Origin: Megasphaera cerevisiae DSM 20462
GTDB taxonomy: Bacteria > Bacillota > Negativicutes > Veillonellales > Megasphaeraceae
Assembly (NCBI RefSeq): GCF_001045675.1
Contig: NZ_LEKT01000071.1
Span: forward strand, 1 to 10,527
Length of the DNA stretch: 10,527 nucleotides
Direction of reading: 5' to 3'
A program made the translations under genes and the position numbers. Shown one piece after another: positions 1-7,680 of the stretch. The notes under the pieces were generated by a model. It was not told where the DNA came from. It did not search any database and was given only the letters and a program-made list of their open reading frames with translations. Within the stretch, counting starts at the first letter, position 1, and every line of letters begins with the position of its first letter.

Positions 1-155
1 AGATGATTTTCCATTTCACCATTCAGCATGGCCTCAAACATAGGCCCGAAAACATCTTTAAGAGCGTTTTGCATATCTTCCACGGTCTTTGGCTTATATT
101 CACTGATAATGGCTTTAGCAAGGGATTCACCCCGTGTGGGCTGTTTCTTTGACAT
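1..155 (-). CDS. IS256-family (Mutator-type) transposase, N-terminal fragment; the CDS continues beyond the left window edge
   Basis: The minus strand from the ATG at 155 translates to MSKKQPTRGESLAKAIISEYKPKTVEDMQNALKDVFGPMFEAMLNGEMENHL. The block EDMQNALKDVFGPMFEAMLxGEMxxHLGY is the characteristic N-terminus of many Firmicute IS256-family transposases. An RBS GGAGGTAAT (reverse complement of 162..170) lies 6 nt upstream of the ATG. Confidence 0.85.
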   Translation of the reverse strand, partial: MSKKQPTRGESLAKAIISEYKPKTVEDMQNALKDVFGPMFEAMLNGEMENH

Positions 156-250
156 AAAATTATTACCTCCGCATGTGTTTGACATCCCCGAGGGGGAGTA
201 TCGTTTAATCTGTTGCTGACTTACTTACACAGTTTATTATACACTCCCCT
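1..250 (-). mobile_element. IS256-family insertion sequence, left copy. Only its 5' part is in the window: terminal inverted repeat, leader and transposase start.
   Basis: The transposase N-terminus is encoded on the minus strand from 155. The reverse complement of 223..250 (AGGGGAGTGTATAATAAACTGTGTAAGT) matches plus 10279..10306 (AAGGGTTTGTCAAGTTAAGTGTGTAAGT) at 20/28 positions, including a perfect 9-mer TGTGTAAGT. That is the geometry expected for the two terminal inverted repeats of the same IS type. The outer boundary is uncertain by about +/-5 nt. Confidence 0.75.
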
Positions 251-618
251 GGATTCCAACAGTTGTTTAGAATATAGGATTTAAACGTATCTGATAAAGG
301 CGTAATATTCTTTCTAAAATCAGTTGTCACCTTTTCAAACGCTTTCTTCCATACCGCATCTGGCGGCGAAAAAGAATTGATATCTGACGGATCAACCTGA
401 TCAAGAGGGACATATTCTCCTTCTTGGTATCCACCTATAGGTCCCATCGCTCCCGTATAAGACCCATACTGTATTACTTCTTTTTTCCACAGAGCTCTAT
501 GTATAACACCATGTTCATCTACAAATATACTAGGTATCACCCTGTCAAGGTTATGTAATGTCCCGGTATATAGTCGTTTTTCTATTTCTTTATCATTCAA
601 AAAATCCTCCGGTTTCAT
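205..618 (-). CDS. Hypothetical protein (137 aa as read). The last ~14 codons and the stop codon lie inside the predicted IS terminal repeat, so the gene is probably 3'-truncated or fused by the IS insertion.
   Basis: This is an ORF from the supplied track. I recognised no family and saw no signal peptide. There is no good Shine-Dalgarno close to the ATG; the nearest GGAGG is more than 20 nt upstream. It is in the same reading frame as the upstream receptor segment, separated by one TAA (667..669) and 16 sense codons. Confidence 0.45.
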   Translation of the reverse strand: MKPEDFLNDKEIEKRLYTGTLHNLDRVIPSIFVDEHGVIHRALWKKEVIQYGSYTGAMGPIGGYQEGEYVPLDQVDPSDINSFSPPDAVWKKAFEKVTTDFRKNITPLSDTFKSYILNNCWNPGECIINCVSKSATD

Positions 619-669
619 ATATTGAAGACTGAGATGTATCCCCTCCGCAGTTTCATTGCTAAGATATTA

Positions 670-1608
670 ACCGAATACATTACCATTACGGTCCGTAATT
701 GTCGTCTTCACCAAAACAGGCATTATTGCTTCAATACCAATATACAAACTCTTTTGAAATCCATCACTTGCCGCATCATCACTTTCTGCAATAAGTTTAT
801 TAATCAATTCAGTATATCCTTCAGGATTCTTTTCCTTGATCACCGCTAAATAATCCTGAAAAATTTTTTTCTCTTCCTGCCAATTTGCGGCCTTCTGCAG
901 CTTCTGCTGCATCGTTTCATAGTCAGGGTTATCGCTGCCCATATTTCCTAACCATTCCGCTTTCGTAGGTCCCCTGAAAAAGACCTGCCGCGTCGCATGC
1001 GTATAGGCACTGTCACTGACACCCGTACTCTGACTGAAATCACCGTAGCCGACTCGGACCTGATTTTTCCCGCTGGTCCAGACGGCGCGGCCGCCGTCAT
1101 ATTCCTTGCCAAACCAATAGCCCGTCACCCCCATCGATTCCGTCAAGCGGCCGATGGAGAAGTCCCATTTATTTGCATGCTGGGTCACATCGACCGTATC
1201 CATGTGCTGATGGTTCAATCCTTTTGAATCACTCACGTCATGCATGGTGTCCACACCGGTCATGCCGGACACACTTCCCAAGAGGGTTACATTCGTGTTG
1301 TCGCCGATCCGGGCGTCGATGCCGGCACAAAAGCGTTGTTCAAAGCCATGGTCTGCCTTTTCCAAATAATTTTTATAGGCCGTACCCACGTTTGCAACGG
1401 TTGTAACCCGAGCTTCCGACGGCTTTACTTTCCCCGTGAAGGAATTCCACCGGGCCCGGTAATCGCCGATGAATTCGACGCCTTCTTCTTTTTCCGTGTC
1501 AAAAGGTACCTGGATAGACCAGTCGTCGTCACGGAGCTTGGCACGAACGACTTCCTTGGCCTTGGCTACGGTCTTCGAGGCCGGTCCGTCGTCGTGTCCG
1601 TCTGAGCC
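670..1608 (-). other. C-terminal extension of ~313 aa, in frame after the canonical last beta-strand of the TonB-dependent receptor
   Basis: The canonical barrel end ...ERVYKFGVNMKF has its terminal Phe codon at 1609..1611. It is followed without a stop by GSDGHDDGPASKTVAKAKEVV...TDRNGNVFG* (stop at 667..669). I did not recognise the domain. Confidence 0.5.
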
Positions 1609-4121
1609 GAATTTCATATTCACGCCGAATTTATAGACCCGTTCCTGGAAGGCCTGATCATCGTCATGATGGTTAAAAAGATTGTCGATGCCGAAGTATA
1701 CCATAGAGTCTTTGTCGATATTTTTTTTGGAATAAGATATTCCACAGGCCAAAGGTCTTTTTCTGATAGCCCCATTTCCCTTTCTCGGAAAATCCGTATT
1801 GGATATTTCCGTCTTTATCGTAGGTCAAATAGTTACCATTGTTAGTAACACTGTTACTGTCCAGCATATGAATATAATAATCTCCCCACAGAGACGCGTT
1901 ATTTTCGTAGGTCACGCCGATATCGACCTTATGCTGGGGCTTATCGAGAAGCTGCTTTGGCATATCGGGATCGCTTTTATTTATAGCATGGAGATAGGTG
2001 TAGCCCAATTTCCCCGACCAGTGCTCATCAAACTGCTGGGTCACTTCCGCTTCCAGTCCGGTGATTTCCGCCTTGCCGATATTTCTGAAACTGTATATCA
2101 TATCGGGCGGTGTAAGCCATTTCATTTTTTTATCCCAGTCCGTTTCCGGCGGATTAAAATCTAATACTTCGCCAGTAAAGTACGTACTCATATAATCTTT
2201 AATGCGGTTATGAAATATATTGATCCGCGCTGACGTTTTTCCATTTTCGCCTTCAATGCCGATATCAAAATTCACGGATTTTTCCGGTTTTAAATCAGGA
2301 TTGCCGATCCAATAATATCCCAGTCGCCCTTCTCCCATTCCACTCGGCATACCGGCATACATTTCCCAACTGTAATAAAGTTCTCCCATGCCCGGTTCTG
2401 TATAGCCCGTTCCCACATTCGCCTTGAAGCGGCGATTTGCTTTGCCGCCGATATTGTGTGTCAGCCCCATATTAAAGGTCGCATTCGTACCAAATAAATC
2501 ACTGGGGTCCACACGAAAGATAGGCGAAACGATCGTGTTCTGGTTCATCTGCCACGTATCCTGAACAAAGAAATTTTGTTTTTTTATAGCTACTTGTCCA
2601 ATACTCTGTCGATTTTGACAAGTGATATAGTCTTCTTGAAATAATTTTCCGTTGTAGGCCGCTGTTCTCGAATTATAATAATGCGATACGGCCATTCTGA
2701 GACTGTGTGTTGGATCTTGATCATGGAGCTGTTTGGCGAATTCCCTCCACTTTTTCTTTACTTCAGCCAGTGCATTGGTAGCATAAGCTCCGTATGCAAG
2801 ATAATCTCCATAGGTATAGGTGGAACATCCTCTTTTCGCGTTACACCGTACCATTCATAATTTTGATCGTAATATGGCACATGATTTTCATCATATGCGA
2901 TTCGATAATCATGTATCGTAGAAAAAGGAGCTCCTTTACCACCCTCCGTATACAGGTTTTTATCATAATCCCAGGGGTCAATATATCGCGTATGTATATT
3001 GGATTTTGGTGCGTTTTTTAAGCGATTTTCCTTACCTGTTTCCTTCGTATATCCAAACCCATAGGTCAGTAAGTGGGCGTCGTTAATCTGTGTGTTAGCA
3101 CTGGCTTTAACATTCCATTGTTTATGCATAATGTCATCAAGATAATTTAAATAATTTTTACCTTCATACTGAGAATTGCCATAATATGATGTCATGGTAA
3201 TATCATCTTCTACCAGTTTTGCATAATCGACGTCAACCTTCCAGTCCGTAGAGCCGCCGTTATTGCCCGTATAAGACAACCGATACGTATTGCGGTCTAC
3301 CTTCTCGTTTGAAATGCTGCTGTGGTTCAGAAACGCTGCTGGAGTGCTTCACGTACCGTTCCATATCTTCTTTCGTCTTATCCATATTGAAATCGATTGT
3401 ATTGCGGTCATCAATATCGTAAGTCGCAGACATGCCGATGTTTTTGATATCGCCATAGTACCGCAGGGAATTTCGCACATTTCCCGTTTCATTGACCGCA
3501 TCGGTAATAGCCGATCCCGTATTATGGTCGCCGCCAAACCGTTCCAGGCTATAGATCGGCATGGTTTTCCGCTTACTGCCATAGACCGCAGCACGGACTT
3601 TACCGATCTGGCCGGAATCCGCCCGCAGGAAGAAATTCTGGTACGGGAAGATATCGCCGTCCTGTTTGACCCGTCTGCCTTCGACATTCACCTGCATACC
3701 TGCCGTCTTGGCGGCTTTCTTGGTAATGACGTTGATGACGCCGCCAATGGCATCAGAGCCGTATTTAGCCGACGCGGCTCCCTGGATGATTTCGATATGA
3801 TCTACATTTTCCGTTCCTAAACGCTGCAGCTCATCTCCTGCGCCGCTGTACTTGGCAAAGTCCCCCATGACGGGCTGACCGTCTATCAATATCAGGGTAT
3901 GCCGCGGTTCTGCCCCGCGGATAGACACGGTTACCCGGCCCATAGCATCCACTGTCCGGGAGACGCCGGTCTCGCTGAATATGATATCTTCTACGGATTT
4001 CGCCTGCTTCTTGGCAATGTCTGCCGCCGTGATGATCGTCGTCTGCTGGCTTTCCAGCTTGGCTTCCTCTTTAGCCTTGTCCGCCTCCACGACGACATCC
4101 CGTGTTATTACCCAATGATTG

Positions 4122-4131
4122 CCCCCCCCCC
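4122..4131 (-). repeat. Homopolymeric tract, C10 on plus and G10 on the coding strand, inside the receptor gene between the signal peptide and the TonB box
   Basis: Counted directly: g4121, ten c at 4122..4131, then a4132. With G10 the signal-peptide frame reads GTG GGG GGG GGG CAA... and stops about 17 codons later. With G9 it would read ...GGG GGG GGC AAT CAT TGG GTA ATA ACA CGG GAT GTC GTC GTG GAG..., which joins the plug-domain frame. Confidence 0.95.
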
Positions 4132-4270
4132 ACTGGACTTTCCGCTGCCATGACAGGAGCCGTCATCCACAGCAGAAGCGCACAAGACAGACCGGCATAC
4201 CATGCCTGCCGCTGTTTTTTCGATACCTTGTGTTTCATAGAGTTTCCTCATTTCTGTTTGCTATCTATTT

Positions 4271-4285
4271 TGATATTAAAAATCA
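4271..4285 (-). promoter_or_regulatory. Candidate Fur-box-like 7-1-7 inverted repeat between the -10 element and the RBS of the receptor gene
   Basis: The minus strand reads TGATTTT-T-AATATCA. The Bacillus-type Fur 7-1-7 consensus is TGATAAT-n-ATTATCA, so 11/14 half-site positions match. It sits just downstream of the predicted -10, which is a typical repressor position. Confidence 0.3.
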
Positions 4286-4298
4286 ATTTATACTTGCC

Positions 4299-4327
4299 AT
4301 TATAGCAAACAGAAAAATCTCTTTCTA
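4299..4327 (-). promoter_or_regulatory. Candidate sigma70-type promoter of the receptor gene with an extended -10
   Basis: The minus strand reads TAGAAA (4327..4322), a 17-nt spacer ending in TGc, then TATAAT (4304..4299). The extended -10 is therefore TGcTATAAT. The -35 is weak. Confidence 0.4.
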
Positions 4328-4359
4328 CTCCATTCGGACGCAAAATGCTCCATTCCGAC
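4328..4359 (-). repeat. Tandem 12-nt direct repeat with 20-nt periodicity, abutting the -35 of the receptor promoter
   Basis: Plus ctccattcggac (4328..4339) and ctccattccgac (4348..4359) match at 11/12. On the minus strand they read GTCGGAATGGAG and GTCCGAATGGAG. The spacing is two helical turns, as for response-regulator or activator sites. Confidence 0.5.
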
Positions 4360-4415
4360 ATTTATTTTTATATCTATCACAAAATGATTTATTCCATTGC
4401 CACTGTGCAACGTGC

Positions 4416-7450: not shown

Positions 7451-7487
7451 AAAAAAAGCCCCTGTAACATTGTGAAATGTTACAGGG
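7451..7487 (-). terminator. T-box leader terminator (attenuator) upstream of glyQ
   Basis: A perfect 11-bp stem pairs CCCTGTAACAT (7460..7470) with ATGTTACAGGG (7477..7487) around a 6-nt loop. On the minus strand it is followed by GC and T7 (A7 at 7451..7457 on plus). Confidence 0.85.
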
Positions 7488-7680
7488 ACGAGTATACGTG
7501 CTGCCCGCGGTTCCACCCTGATTGGCCCAAAGGCCCACTTGATTTATCTGACCATACACTAACCTGCAGAGGAAATTTCCGGTCACGGCCTTCAGAGTGC
7601 CTTCAGCATATCCATGATAAGCTCTCACTGCCCTTATCTCGCTGCCCTATGCCTACTTCTCTCCTGCATCGCCTTTACTT
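7451..7680 (-). promoter_or_regulatory. T-box riboswitch leader (glycine-specific) controlling glyQS
   Basis: On the minus strand the Stem I base with a GA motif is GCGAUGCAGGAGAG, and the distal region carries AGCGAGA and AGUGAGAGC. The specifier-loop context is CUGAAGGCA, with a GGC (Gly) codon at 7601..7599 followed by the conserved purine. The T-box sequence AAUCAGGGUGGAACCGCGGG is the reverse complement of 7504..7523. Its UGGA bulge (7515..7512) fits a tRNA-Gly acceptor end UCCA. A terminator hairpin follows. Confidence 0.9.

What the first reader, a model, noticed from the sequence alone, without database searches (positions are those of the whole stretch)
4100..4238. G10 tract between the signal peptide and TonB box of a TonB-dependent receptor: candidate slipped-strand phase-variation switch, read here as OFF
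The receptor's signal peptide (ATG at 4238, cleavage-like VMA/AE) and its TonB box and plug domain are in different frames. They are separated by a run of exactly ten G on the coding strand (4122..4131). Removing one G (G9), or adding two (G12), fuses the two into one continuous, sensible protein: ...AAESPVGGGNHWVITRDVVVEADKAKEE.... Poly-G tracts in TonB-dependent receptor genes are the classic ON/OFF mechanism in Neisseria (hmbR, hpuAB). I am not aware of this being an established mechanism in diderm Firmicutes. Its position right after the signal peptide means the OFF state wastes almost no translation.
Basis: partly seen in the sequence, partly recalled or inferred. Interest (0 to 1): 0.7.

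Follow-up and report, generated by a model that had tools for sequence, protein, structure and literature searches.

The report
Variable poly-G tract in dead receptor gene
The ten-G run is real and belongs to a length-variable poly-G tract conserved in a family of giant outer-membrane receptor genes of Megasphaera, but this copy (M. cerevisiae DSM 20462) carries five further lesions, so changing the tract length cannot turn it back on.

Summary
Observation confirmed. G10 lies at 4122-4131 on the coding (minus) strand, between a signal peptide (ATG 4238) and the TonB box and plug, which are in another frame. G9 or G12 fuses them.

The window is Megasphaera cerevisiae DSM 20462. The same tract sits at the same codon position in many paralogues and orthologues (Megasphaera, a Selenomonas MAG), with lengths G8 to G17. 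Length differs at orthologous loci that are otherwise near-identical:
- this locus, G10 vs G16, with 1 SNP in 5 kb;
- a paralogous locus, G17 vs G11;
- a locus found in several metagenomes, one of them human oral, G8 (in frame) vs G9 (out of frame), 99.9% identical.

Homologues without the tract (Veillonella) almost never show this frame break.

This copy is nevertheless a fixed pseudogene. With G9 the ORF stops after 325 aa, against about 1,500 aa in intact relatives. The further lesions are a +1 frameshift near 3300, a -1 near 2822, an A7-to-A8 insertion at 1721-1728, a TAA at 667-669 and an insertion at 248. The first four recur, gap-free, in strain NSB1 or in six independent read sets; the insertion is DSM 20462-specific.

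This is a known mechanism in a lineage where I found no report of it. Reversible switching is untested.

The parts
4122..4131 (-). G10 homopolymer tract (C10 on the + strand). It encodes the Gly run of the mature N-terminus and sets the frame between signal peptide and plug.
   Evidence: The same tract position holds G8 to G17 in related loci.
4146..4238 (-). Signal peptide coding region (MKHKVSKKQRQAWYAGLSCALLLWMTAPVMA, cleavage-like VMA|AE). The ATG is at 4238-4236.
   Evidence: Translation. It has a basic n-region, a hydrophobic core and an AxA-like end (by inspection), and is conserved in paralogues.
4071..4238 (-). The 55-aa ORF actually encoded with G10: signal peptide plus an out-of-frame tail.
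   Evidence: It is also called as a 55-aa gene in the JGI assembly.
4082..4105 (-). TonB-box-like segment TRDVVVEA, in the plug frame.
   Evidence: Translation. The position is conserved across homologues. The assignment is by position and sequence only.
3260..4121 (-). Plug-domain frame segment (frame -3). It ends at a stop created by the next frameshift.
   Evidence: Pfam Plug PF07715, E 1.2e-21. tblastn of intact homologues.
3300..3303 (-). Lesion 2: a 1-bp insertion (GAAG-G-TAGAC) that shifts frame -3 to -1. It is not in a long homopolymer.
   Evidence: It is present gap-free in NSB1 and in Logan assemblies.
2758..3279 (-). Barrel fragment (173-aa ORF, frame -1).
2815..2833 (-). Lesion 3: a net -1 frameshift (GATGTTCCACC|TATACC) that shifts frame -1 to -3.
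   Evidence: Shared by the other assemblies.
1673..2854 (-). Barrel fragment (393-aa ORF).
   Evidence: Pfam TonB_dep_Rec_b-barrel, E 1.8e-33. The exact protein is present in NSB1 and in six independent read-set assemblies.
1721..1728 (-). Lesion 4: A8 where the intact paralogues lack one base at this run (P0162 protein implies A7). A +1 frameshift 50 codons before the end of the barrel.
667..1752 (-). End of the receptor barrel (...GVNMKF) plus the first part of the C-terminal extension. It is closed by an in-frame TAA at 667-669 (lesion 5), which intact homologues read through.
249..666 (-). Continuation of the C-terminal extension in the same frame after the TAA (includes ORF 205..618).
1..248 (-). 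Lesion 6: inserted element that replaces the last ~250 codons. It begins GGGAGTGTATAATAAACTG..., and its ORF start resembles a Mutator/IS256-type transposase. The contig ends inside it.
   Evidence: Identity with strain NSB1 stops at window 249. Pfam Transposase_mut gives E 0.0047, below its cut-off, with only 66 aa available.
4299..4327 (-). Promoter-like site: TAGAAA, 17 nt spacer, TG-extended TATAAT.
   Evidence: Conserved in paralogues.
4270..4286 (-). Palindrome TTGATTTTTAATATCAA just downstream of the -10 element. It is a possible metal-regulator (Fur-like) operator, which is an inference only.
   Evidence: Read from the sequence. Conserved among M. cerevisiae paralogues.

Best explanation
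The window is from Megasphaera cerevisiae DSM 20462. On the minus strand, downstream of glyQS, lies one copy of a multigene family of about 1,450 to 1,530-aa outer-membrane proteins. Each consists of a signal peptide, a poly-G tract, a TonB box, a plug, a 22-strand-type receptor barrel and a C-terminal porin-like extension.

The poly-G tract is a mutational hot spot. Replication slippage changes its length, and because it lies between the signal peptide and the rest of the protein, only lengths of 3n (here G9, G12 and so on) export a receptor. In intact family members this would work as a stochastic ON/OFF switch layered on a conserved promoter and operator.

In this copy the switch is a relic. 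The gene also carries a +1 frameshift (~3300), a -1 frameshift (~2822), an A7-to-A8 insertion (1721-1728), a nonsense codon (667-669) and an insertion at 248. It is therefore a pseudogene whatever the tract length, and the tract keeps drifting (G10 here, G16 in another M. cerevisiae genome).

Shown here: the tract, the frames, the lesions and their presence in independent assemblies, and length polymorphism at orthologous loci. Inferred: slippage as the cause, reversibility, and ON/OFF function in intact paralogues.
For: Source organism:
- Exact protein matches to M. cerevisiae DSM 20462 accessions.
- 100% identity over 9,090 nt, including G10, to the independent JGI assembly FUXD01000063.1.

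Pseudogene status:
- Intact homologues map to the window in frames -2, -3, -1, -3, -1, with breaks at 4122-4131, ~3300, ~2815-2833 and 1721-1728, and they align through the TAA at 667.
- The breaks at ~3300, ~2822 and 1721-1728 and the TAA are reproduced without gaps at 99.8 to 100% identity in strain NSB1 and, each in at least three of them, in Logan assemblies of six read sets.
- Both isolate genomes were sequenced on Illumina MiSeq, which makes indel artefacts unlikely.
- glyS, glyQ and dapB in the same window are intact.
- The G9 or G12 ORF is only 325/326 aa.

Hypermutable tract:
- At this locus the window has G10 and a M. cerevisiae MAG contig has G16. The only other difference in 5,049 nt is 1 SNP.
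- Other assemblies break or carry a scaffold gap at or next to the tract.
- A paralogous locus has G17 in DSM 20462 and G11 in a metagenome.
- At the rpiB-upp locus found in several metagenomes (one human oral), eight contigs have G8 (in frame, 1,462 aa) and one has G9 (out of frame, ORF otherwise intact). They are 99.9% identical over 5,874 nt and the only gap is the tract.
- Further copies have G10, G14, G12, G10, G9 and G8.
- In every Megasphaera-related locus checked, the only G/C run of 8 or more is this tract.
- Among cluster representatives that reach the N-terminus, 16 of 33 with the Gly run lack an in-frame signal peptide, against 1 of 25 without it (Fisher p = 2.9e-4).
Against: - No read-level data were available, so within-culture heterogeneity and reversibility are untested.
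- Some length differences come from metagenome assemblies. One has about 1.6x coverage and one has a scaffold gap in the tract, so long G runs could be miscalled there.
- The cluster counts are not phylogenetically independent, and I classified them by eye.
- Several M. cerevisiae paralogues are themselves damaged: an IS insertion in L093, a signal-peptide deletion and split in L167, an extra frameshift in L179 and a C-terminal frameshift in L092. The family may therefore be decaying in this species rather than being used as a switchable repertoire.
- Lesion 4 lies in an A8 run, which could in principle also be slippage-prone.
Confidence: 0.85

Rival explanations
1. One reading: a live, reversible slipped-strand switch at this locus that is currently OFF, so that loss of one G restores a functional receptor.
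For: G9 or G12 fuses the signal peptide and the plug. The tract length does vary at this locus. The promoter and operator-like elements are intact and conserved.
Against: The G9 ORF ends after 325 aa. Two further frameshifts, an A8 insertion, a TAA and (in DSM 20462 only) a truncating 3' insertion interrupt the rest, and the first four are shared by other strains or read sets. The two observed lengths at this locus (G10 and G16) are both out of frame, as expected without selection on frame.
Confidence: 0.04
2. Sequencing or assembly artefact: the true tract is G9 or G12, and the apparent OFF state and the length differences between assemblies are homopolymer miscalls.
For: Long G runs are difficult for sequencers and assemblers. 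Contigs end 17 and 33 nt from the tract, and one scaffold has 10 N inside it. Some comparison contigs have very low coverage (record name).
Against: Two separately deposited assemblies of DSM 20462 are 100% identical over 9,090 nt including G10; the published one used MiSeq reads at 90x. G10 vs G16 and G17 vs G11 are 6-base differences, not +/-1 miscalls. G8 and G9 runs are short enough to be read reliably, and the G8 allele recurs in eight contigs. Homologues without the tract do not show the frame break. Even if G10 were wrong, the gene would still be broken downstream.
Confidence: 0.05
3. Expression-level recoding: RNA polymerase slippage or ribosomal frameshifting on the G run yields some in-frame product regardless of DNA length, so the tract tunes expression rather than switching it.
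For: From my own knowledge, transcriptional slippage on long homopolymers is documented in bacteria. Many family members are out of frame in assemblies yet keep ORFs of 1,400 to 1,500 aa.
Against: Nothing here tests it directly. From my own knowledge, known slippage sites are mostly A/T runs. The in-frame G8 allele is the common one at the metagenome (rpiB-upp) locus, which suggests that DNA-level frame matters. It is irrelevant for this copy because of the downstream lesions.
Confidence: 0.04
4. The G run is only a Gly-linker coding sequence with no special mutability. The frame break here is one ordinary pseudogene lesion among several.
For: This copy has several unrelated lesions. The tract encodes a flexible Gly stretch at the mature N-terminus.
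Against: Glycine could be encoded by GGN mixtures, yet an uninterrupted G run is kept at the same position in many paralogues and species. Its length is the only indel between otherwise near-identical alleles at three loci.
Confidence: 0.03

Closest known systems
Neisseria meningitidis hmbR and hpuAB: poly-G tracts in TonB-dependent haemoglobin receptor genes
   Same: A G homopolymer inside the coding region of a TonB-dependent receptor system. Length changes shift the frame and give ON/OFF states, and isolates differ in tract length and state (PMC3352162, PMC3786947).
   Different: Switching in Neisseria is demonstrated experimentally, whereas here there is only comparative evidence. The lineage here is Negativicutes (diderm Firmicutes). 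The tract position is fixed between the signal peptide and the TonB box across a whole paralogous family. The protein is about twice as long because of a C-terminal porin-like extension. Haem specificity is not supported. This particular copy is a pseudogene.
Poly-G/C contingency loci of Campylobacter jejuni and homopolymeric-tract genes of Helicobacter and Bordetella
   Same: Multiple loci per genome carry G/C homopolymers of about 8 to 17 nt in surface-protein genes. Tract length differs between strains (PMC8355987, PMC1891110, PMC2823697).
   Different: Those sets span many unrelated gene families. Here all tracts seen belong to one paralogous receptor family, at one homologous codon position, which suggests the tract was inherited with gene duplication.
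Veillonella parvula OmpM1 porin (PDB 8BYT, 8BYS, 8BYM)
   Same: It is the best structural match to the C-terminal extension of intact family members (Foldseek E 1.9e-18, TM 0.77 relative to the target), and it comes from the same bacterial class.
   Different: OmpM has an N-terminal SLH domain and is a stand-alone porin. Here the barrel is fused behind a TonB-dependent receptor and carries a helical insert of about 160 aa. The model confidence is only moderate (pLDDT 67), and the sequence-level signal is weak (Porin_5, E 0.0014, below its cut-off).

Membership tests
Homopolymeric-tract (SSR) translational phase-variable contingency locus | An uninterrupted homopolymer of about 7 nt or more inside the 5' part of the coding region | tested here: met
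   G10 at 4122-4131, 107 nt after the ATG.
Homopolymeric-tract (SSR) translational phase-variable contingency locus | Tract length decides whether the downstream ORF is in frame with the start codon | tested here: met
   G9 or G12 joins the signal peptide to the plug. G8, G10, G11 and G13 give 42 to 56 aa peptides.
Homopolymeric-tract (SSR) translational phase-variable contingency locus | The ON length gives a complete, functional gene product | tested here: not met
   The G9/G12 ORF is 325/326 aa, against about 1,500 aa in relatives. There are three more frameshifts, a TAA and an insertion. The feature is met in relatives: L157 has G8 in frame with 1,462 aa, while L082 and L166 are out of frame with otherwise intact ORFs.
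Homopolymeric-tract (SSR) translational phase-variable contingency locus | Tract length differs between strains at the same locus while the flanks are near-identical | tested here: met
   G10 vs G16 with 1 SNP in 5,049 nt. G17 vs G11 at a paralogous locus. G8 vs G9 at 99.9% identity.
Homopolymeric-tract (SSR) translational phase-variable contingency locus | Length heterogeneity within one culture, with high-frequency reversible switching | not testable with these tools
   This needs raw reads or single-colony amplicons. Only consensus assemblies were available.
TonB-dependent receptor (Pfam Plug PF07715 plus TonB_dep_Rec_b-barrel PF00593) | Plug domain and receptor beta-barrel | tested here: met
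   Plug E 1.2e-21 and barrel E 1.8e-33, found on separate fragments.
TonB-dependent receptor (Pfam Plug PF07715 plus TonB_dep_Rec_b-barrel PF00593) | Signal peptide and N-terminal TonB box in one uninterrupted ORF with the plug and barrel | tested here: not met
   The signal peptide is in frame -2 and the plug in frame -3, and the barrel is split over frames -1, -3 and -1. The TonB box (TRDVVVEA) is assigned by position and conservation only.
Haem/haemoglobin/transferrin TonB-dependent receptor subfamilies (TIGR01785, TIGR01786) | Score above the curated family cut-off | tested here: not met
   For the intact relatives P0162 and P0002, the best hit is TIGR01786 at 125 bits against a cut-off of 323.75, and TIGR01785 at 115 bits against 316.85. 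The substrate is unknown.
OmpM-type porin of Negativicutes (for the C-terminal extension) | A 16-strand-type porin barrel preceded by an SLH domain | tested here: inconclusive
   A barrel-like model matches OmpM1 best. No SLH domain precedes it, the model has pLDDT 67, and the Pfam Porin_5 hit is below its cut-off.

The most novel reading that the evidence does not exclude
Megasphaera and relatives (e.g. Selenomonas) may carry a family-wide set of poly-G contingency switches. Each would control export of one paralogue of an unusual two-barrel outer-membrane protein, a TonB-dependent receptor fused to an OmpM-like porin. This would be the first simple-sequence-repeat phase variation described in diderm Firmicutes, including human oral and gut species. 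The M. cerevisiae copy in this window would be a decayed member whose tract still drifts in length.
Probability: 0.5. Interest if true: 0.65.

Novelty: new member of a known kind. Interest (0 to 1): 0.5.

Why it matters
Slipped-strand ON/OFF switching of surface receptors is a hallmark of host-adapted Proteobacteria and Campylobacterota. Four full-text searches found no report of it in Negativicutes.

If the conserved tract really switches, populations of Megasphaera and related oral, gut or brewery bacteria would be mixtures that differ in which giant receptors they display. That would bear on nutrient uptake and on sensitivity to phages and bacteriocins. It would also bear on annotation, because many of these genes are currently called as truncated or 'partial' proteins that start after the tract.

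For this window the practical message is more modest. The gene is a pseudogene and should be annotated as one.

Tried and rejected
- **Genome-contig scan.** I queried with a family alignment. The back-translated patterns were generic TonB-receptor motifs, so only about 17 of 80 loci were relevant and no M. cerevisiae locus was returned.
- **Metagenome-contig scan.** The flank pattern GAAAGTCCAGTG-N(6-30)-GCAATMAT gave 63 matches, none with a G-rich gap. All were chance matches.
- **Sequencing-error explanation for the downstream frameshifts.** Rejected, because the same lesions recur in strain NSB1 and in six read-set assemblies, and both isolate genomes are Illumina assemblies.
- **P0001 (851 aa) ending at the A-run as a second switch.** Rejected, because that copy is truncated by an IS30-like insertion.
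- **Assigning a substrate.** NCBIfam gives only sub-threshold hits to haem, siderophore and B12 receptor models.
- **C-terminal extension by sequence.** There was no NCBIfam hit, no PDB sequence hit, and only a sub-threshold Porin_5 hit.
- **Rfam at gathering threshold.** It found nothing in the window.
- **Contig look-ups.** All 12 were used, so the ON/OFF pair P0005/P0007 and other pairs could not be compared at DNA level.
Full report
**1. The observation**

The minus strand of the window carries an uninterrupted G10 at 4122..4131. It is the only homopolymer of 10 or more bases in the window. Dinucleotide-preserving shuffles give an expected 0.05 such runs.

An ATG at 4238 opens a typical signal peptide, MKHKVSKKQRQAWYAGLSCALLLWMTAPVMA|AESPVGGG. 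With G10 this reading frame stops after 55 aa (ORF 4071..4238). The plug domain (Pfam Plug, E 1.2e-21) lies in the next frame, preceded by TRDVVVEA, the TonB-box-like segment.

G8, G10, G11 and G13 give short peptides.

**2. Where the window comes from**

GlyQ, GlyS, DapB and three of the four receptor fragments queried match proteins of Megasphaera cerevisiae DSM 20462 (= PAT 1T) exactly. The window is 100% identical over 9,090 nt, tract included, to contig FUXD01000063.1 of the JGI assembly of that strain. The published DSM 20462 genome and that of strain NSB1 were sequenced on Illumina MiSeq (PMC4566188, PMC5323634).

**3. The gene is broken in more places than the tract**

Intact relatives are about 1,450 to 1,530 aa long. 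Mapped onto the window by tblastn, they run through frames -2, -3, -1, -3 and -1. The lesions beyond the G tract are:
- A 1-bp insertion near 3300-3303 (GAAG-G-TAGAC).
- A net -1 frameshift near 2815-2833.
- A8 at 1721-1728, where two intact paralogues lack one base in the nucleotide alignment (P0162's protein implies A7).
- An in-frame TAA at 667-669, which the relatives read through.
- Loss of identity with strain NSB1 at window 249. The remaining 248 nt are an inserted element whose first ORF weakly resembles a Mutator/IS256-type transposase, and the last ~250 codons of the gene are missing.

The three internal frameshifts and the TAA are reproduced without any gap at 99.8 to 100% identity in NSB1 (all four) and, each in at least three of them, in assemblies of six independent sequencing runs. 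GlyS, glyQ and dapB in the same window are intact. These are therefore real, fixed mutations. The locus is a pseudogene, and the ON tract length would give only a 325-aa fragment.

**4. The tract is nevertheless a real, conserved, length-variable element**

The homologous position, between the signal-peptidase site and the TonB box, holds an uninterrupted G run in many family members. "OFF" below means out of frame with the signal peptide.

| Locus | Source | Tract | State |
|---|---|---|---|
| Window | M. cerevisiae DSM 20462 | G10 | OFF, pseudogene |
| L082 | Metagenome paralogue next to an alternative nitrogenase cluster | G10 | OFF, 1,522-aa ORF otherwise intact |
| L092 | M. cerevisiae MAG | G14 | OFF |
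| L093 | M. cerevisiae MAG | G12 | In frame, but truncated by an IS30-like element |
| L167 | Second DSM 20462 paralogue | G17 | OFF |
| L168 | Metagenome counterpart of L167 | G11 | OFF |
| L179 | M. cerevisiae MAG | G10 | OFF |
| L015 | Uncultured Megasphaera | G9 | In frame |
| L012 | Selenomonas MAG | G8 | OFF |

Veillonella homologues have no tract. In every Megasphaera-related locus checked, this tract is the only G/C run of 8 or more.

Three comparisons are at the same locus:
- **This locus.** A M. cerevisiae MAG contig (L169) differs from the window over 5,049 nt by one SNP and by G16 instead of G10. Another assembly has a 10-N scaffold gap inside the tract. Two others end 17 nt before it and 33 nt after it.
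- **L167 vs L168.** G17 against G11.
- **The rpiB-upp-receptor locus recovered from several metagenomes, one of them human oral.** Eight contigs have G8 and a 1,462-aa protein with its signal peptide. One contig (L166) has G9 and a protein called from an internal start. The two are 99.9% identical over 5,874 nt, and the tract is the only gap.

At the protein level, I looked at cluster representatives that reach the N-terminus. Of those with the Gly run, 16 of 33 lack an in-frame signal peptide, against 1 of 25 without it (Fisher p = 2.9e-4). That classification was made by eye, and the clusters are not independent.

**5. Mechanism**

The best-supported reading is replication slippage in the G run. 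In intact members this toggles export of the receptor. The mature N-terminus tolerates a variable number of glycines, so every third length is ON.

A conserved TG-extended -10 promoter (4299-4327) and a palindrome just downstream of it (TTGATTTTTAATATCAA, 4270-4286) are shared by the M. cerevisiae paralogues. A direct repeat (GTCGGAATGGA / GTCCGAATGGA) lies upstream of and overlapping the predicted -35 hexamer. These suggest a transcriptional layer of control, possibly metal-dependent. That is inference only.

In the window copy the switch has no functional consequence. Both lengths seen at this locus (G10 and G16) are out of frame, as expected for a tract drifting without selection.

Shown: the sequence anatomy, the lesions, and the between-genome length polymorphism. 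Not shown: within-culture heterogeneity, reversibility, protein ON/OFF, and the substrate.

**6. Comparison with known systems**

The mechanism is that of the poly-G tracts in Neisseria hmbR/hpuAB and of the poly-G contingency genes of Campylobacter (PMC3352162, PMC3786947, PMC8355987).

Membership as a working phase-variable gene fails for this copy on one defining feature, because the ON length does not give a complete product. The tract features and the between-strain polymorphism are met. Switching itself is not testable here.

Haem-receptor membership is not supported. TIGR01786 scores 125 bits against a cut-off of 324.

Four literature searches returned nothing on simple-sequence-repeat phase variation in Megasphaera, Veillonella, Selenomonas or Negativicutes. 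Absence from that library is not proof that nothing has been published.

**7. Verdict**

The window holds a fixed pseudogene that preserves a still-mutating poly-G tract. That tract marks a previously unreported candidate contingency family in diderm Firmicutes.

The novelty is a new member of a known kind. Interest is moderate (0.5). It rests mainly on the family-level pattern and on the odd two-barrel architecture of the proteins, not on this dead copy.

Noticed in passing
window 249-1650 (-), and intact relatives P0033, P0162 and others: Family members carry a C-terminal extension of about 600 to 690 aa after the receptor barrel (...GVNMKF), and it ends in its own aromatic terminus (...TYRF or TFKF). 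An AlphaFold2 model (pLDDT 67) shows two blocks of antiparallel strands around a ~160-aa helical insert. Its best PDB match is the Veillonella parvula OmpM1 porin (E 1.9e-18, TM 0.77 relative to the target). This would be a TonB-dependent receptor fused to a porin-like second barrel.
   Followed up: partly
window 7481-7678 (-): A full-length T-box leader match lies upstream of glyQ (67.7 bits, E 3e-14, below the Rfam gathering score of 93). It sits within a ~1.1-kb stretch without called genes, between a cold-shock gene and glyQ.
   Followed up: partly
window 1-248 (-); L081 8936-9135: The contig end is an inserted element that truncates the receptor gene in DSM 20462 but not in NSB1. Its first ORF (MSKKQPTRGESLAKAII...) weakly matches the N-terminus of Mutator/IS256-type transposases (E 0.0047).
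   Followed up: partly
window ~4415; L171 3635-3953: In strain NSB1 the sequence diverges from the window at 4415, between the glyS terminator and the receptor promoter. It runs into an element encoding MDTSSLAHTKWRCKYHLVF..., which from memory resembles IS200/IS605 TnpA. Pfam gave no hit on the 35 aa available.
   Followed up: partly
window 4270-4360 (-), and paralogous loci L082, L092, L093, L167, L168, L179: The upstream region is conserved between paralogues at different chromosomal sites. It has a direct repeat ATGTCGGAATGGA...GTCCGAATGGAGTAGAA upstream of and overlapping the predicted -35 hexamer, a TG-extended TATAAT, and a palindrome TGATTnnTAnTATCA downstream of the -10 element that looks like a Fur-type operator.
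   Followed up: partly
L092, L093, L167, L179 (M. cerevisiae paralogues): Several other copies of the family in M. cerevisiae genomes are also damaged. L093 has an IS30-like insertion after codon 851. L167 has a ~38-nt (per the alignment) deletion in the signal peptide and a split ORF. L179 has an extra 1-nt deletion in the signal peptide. L092 has a frameshift near the 3' end. The family may be decaying in this beer-spoilage species.
   Followed up: partly
L082 1-4486: The intact G10 paralogue from a metagenome lies directly downstream of an alternative-nitrogenase-type cluster (AnfG/VnfG, Oxidored_nitro, NifH, NifB-like) and upstream of an encapsulin/EncFtn pair. This hints at a metal-related context.
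   Followed up: no
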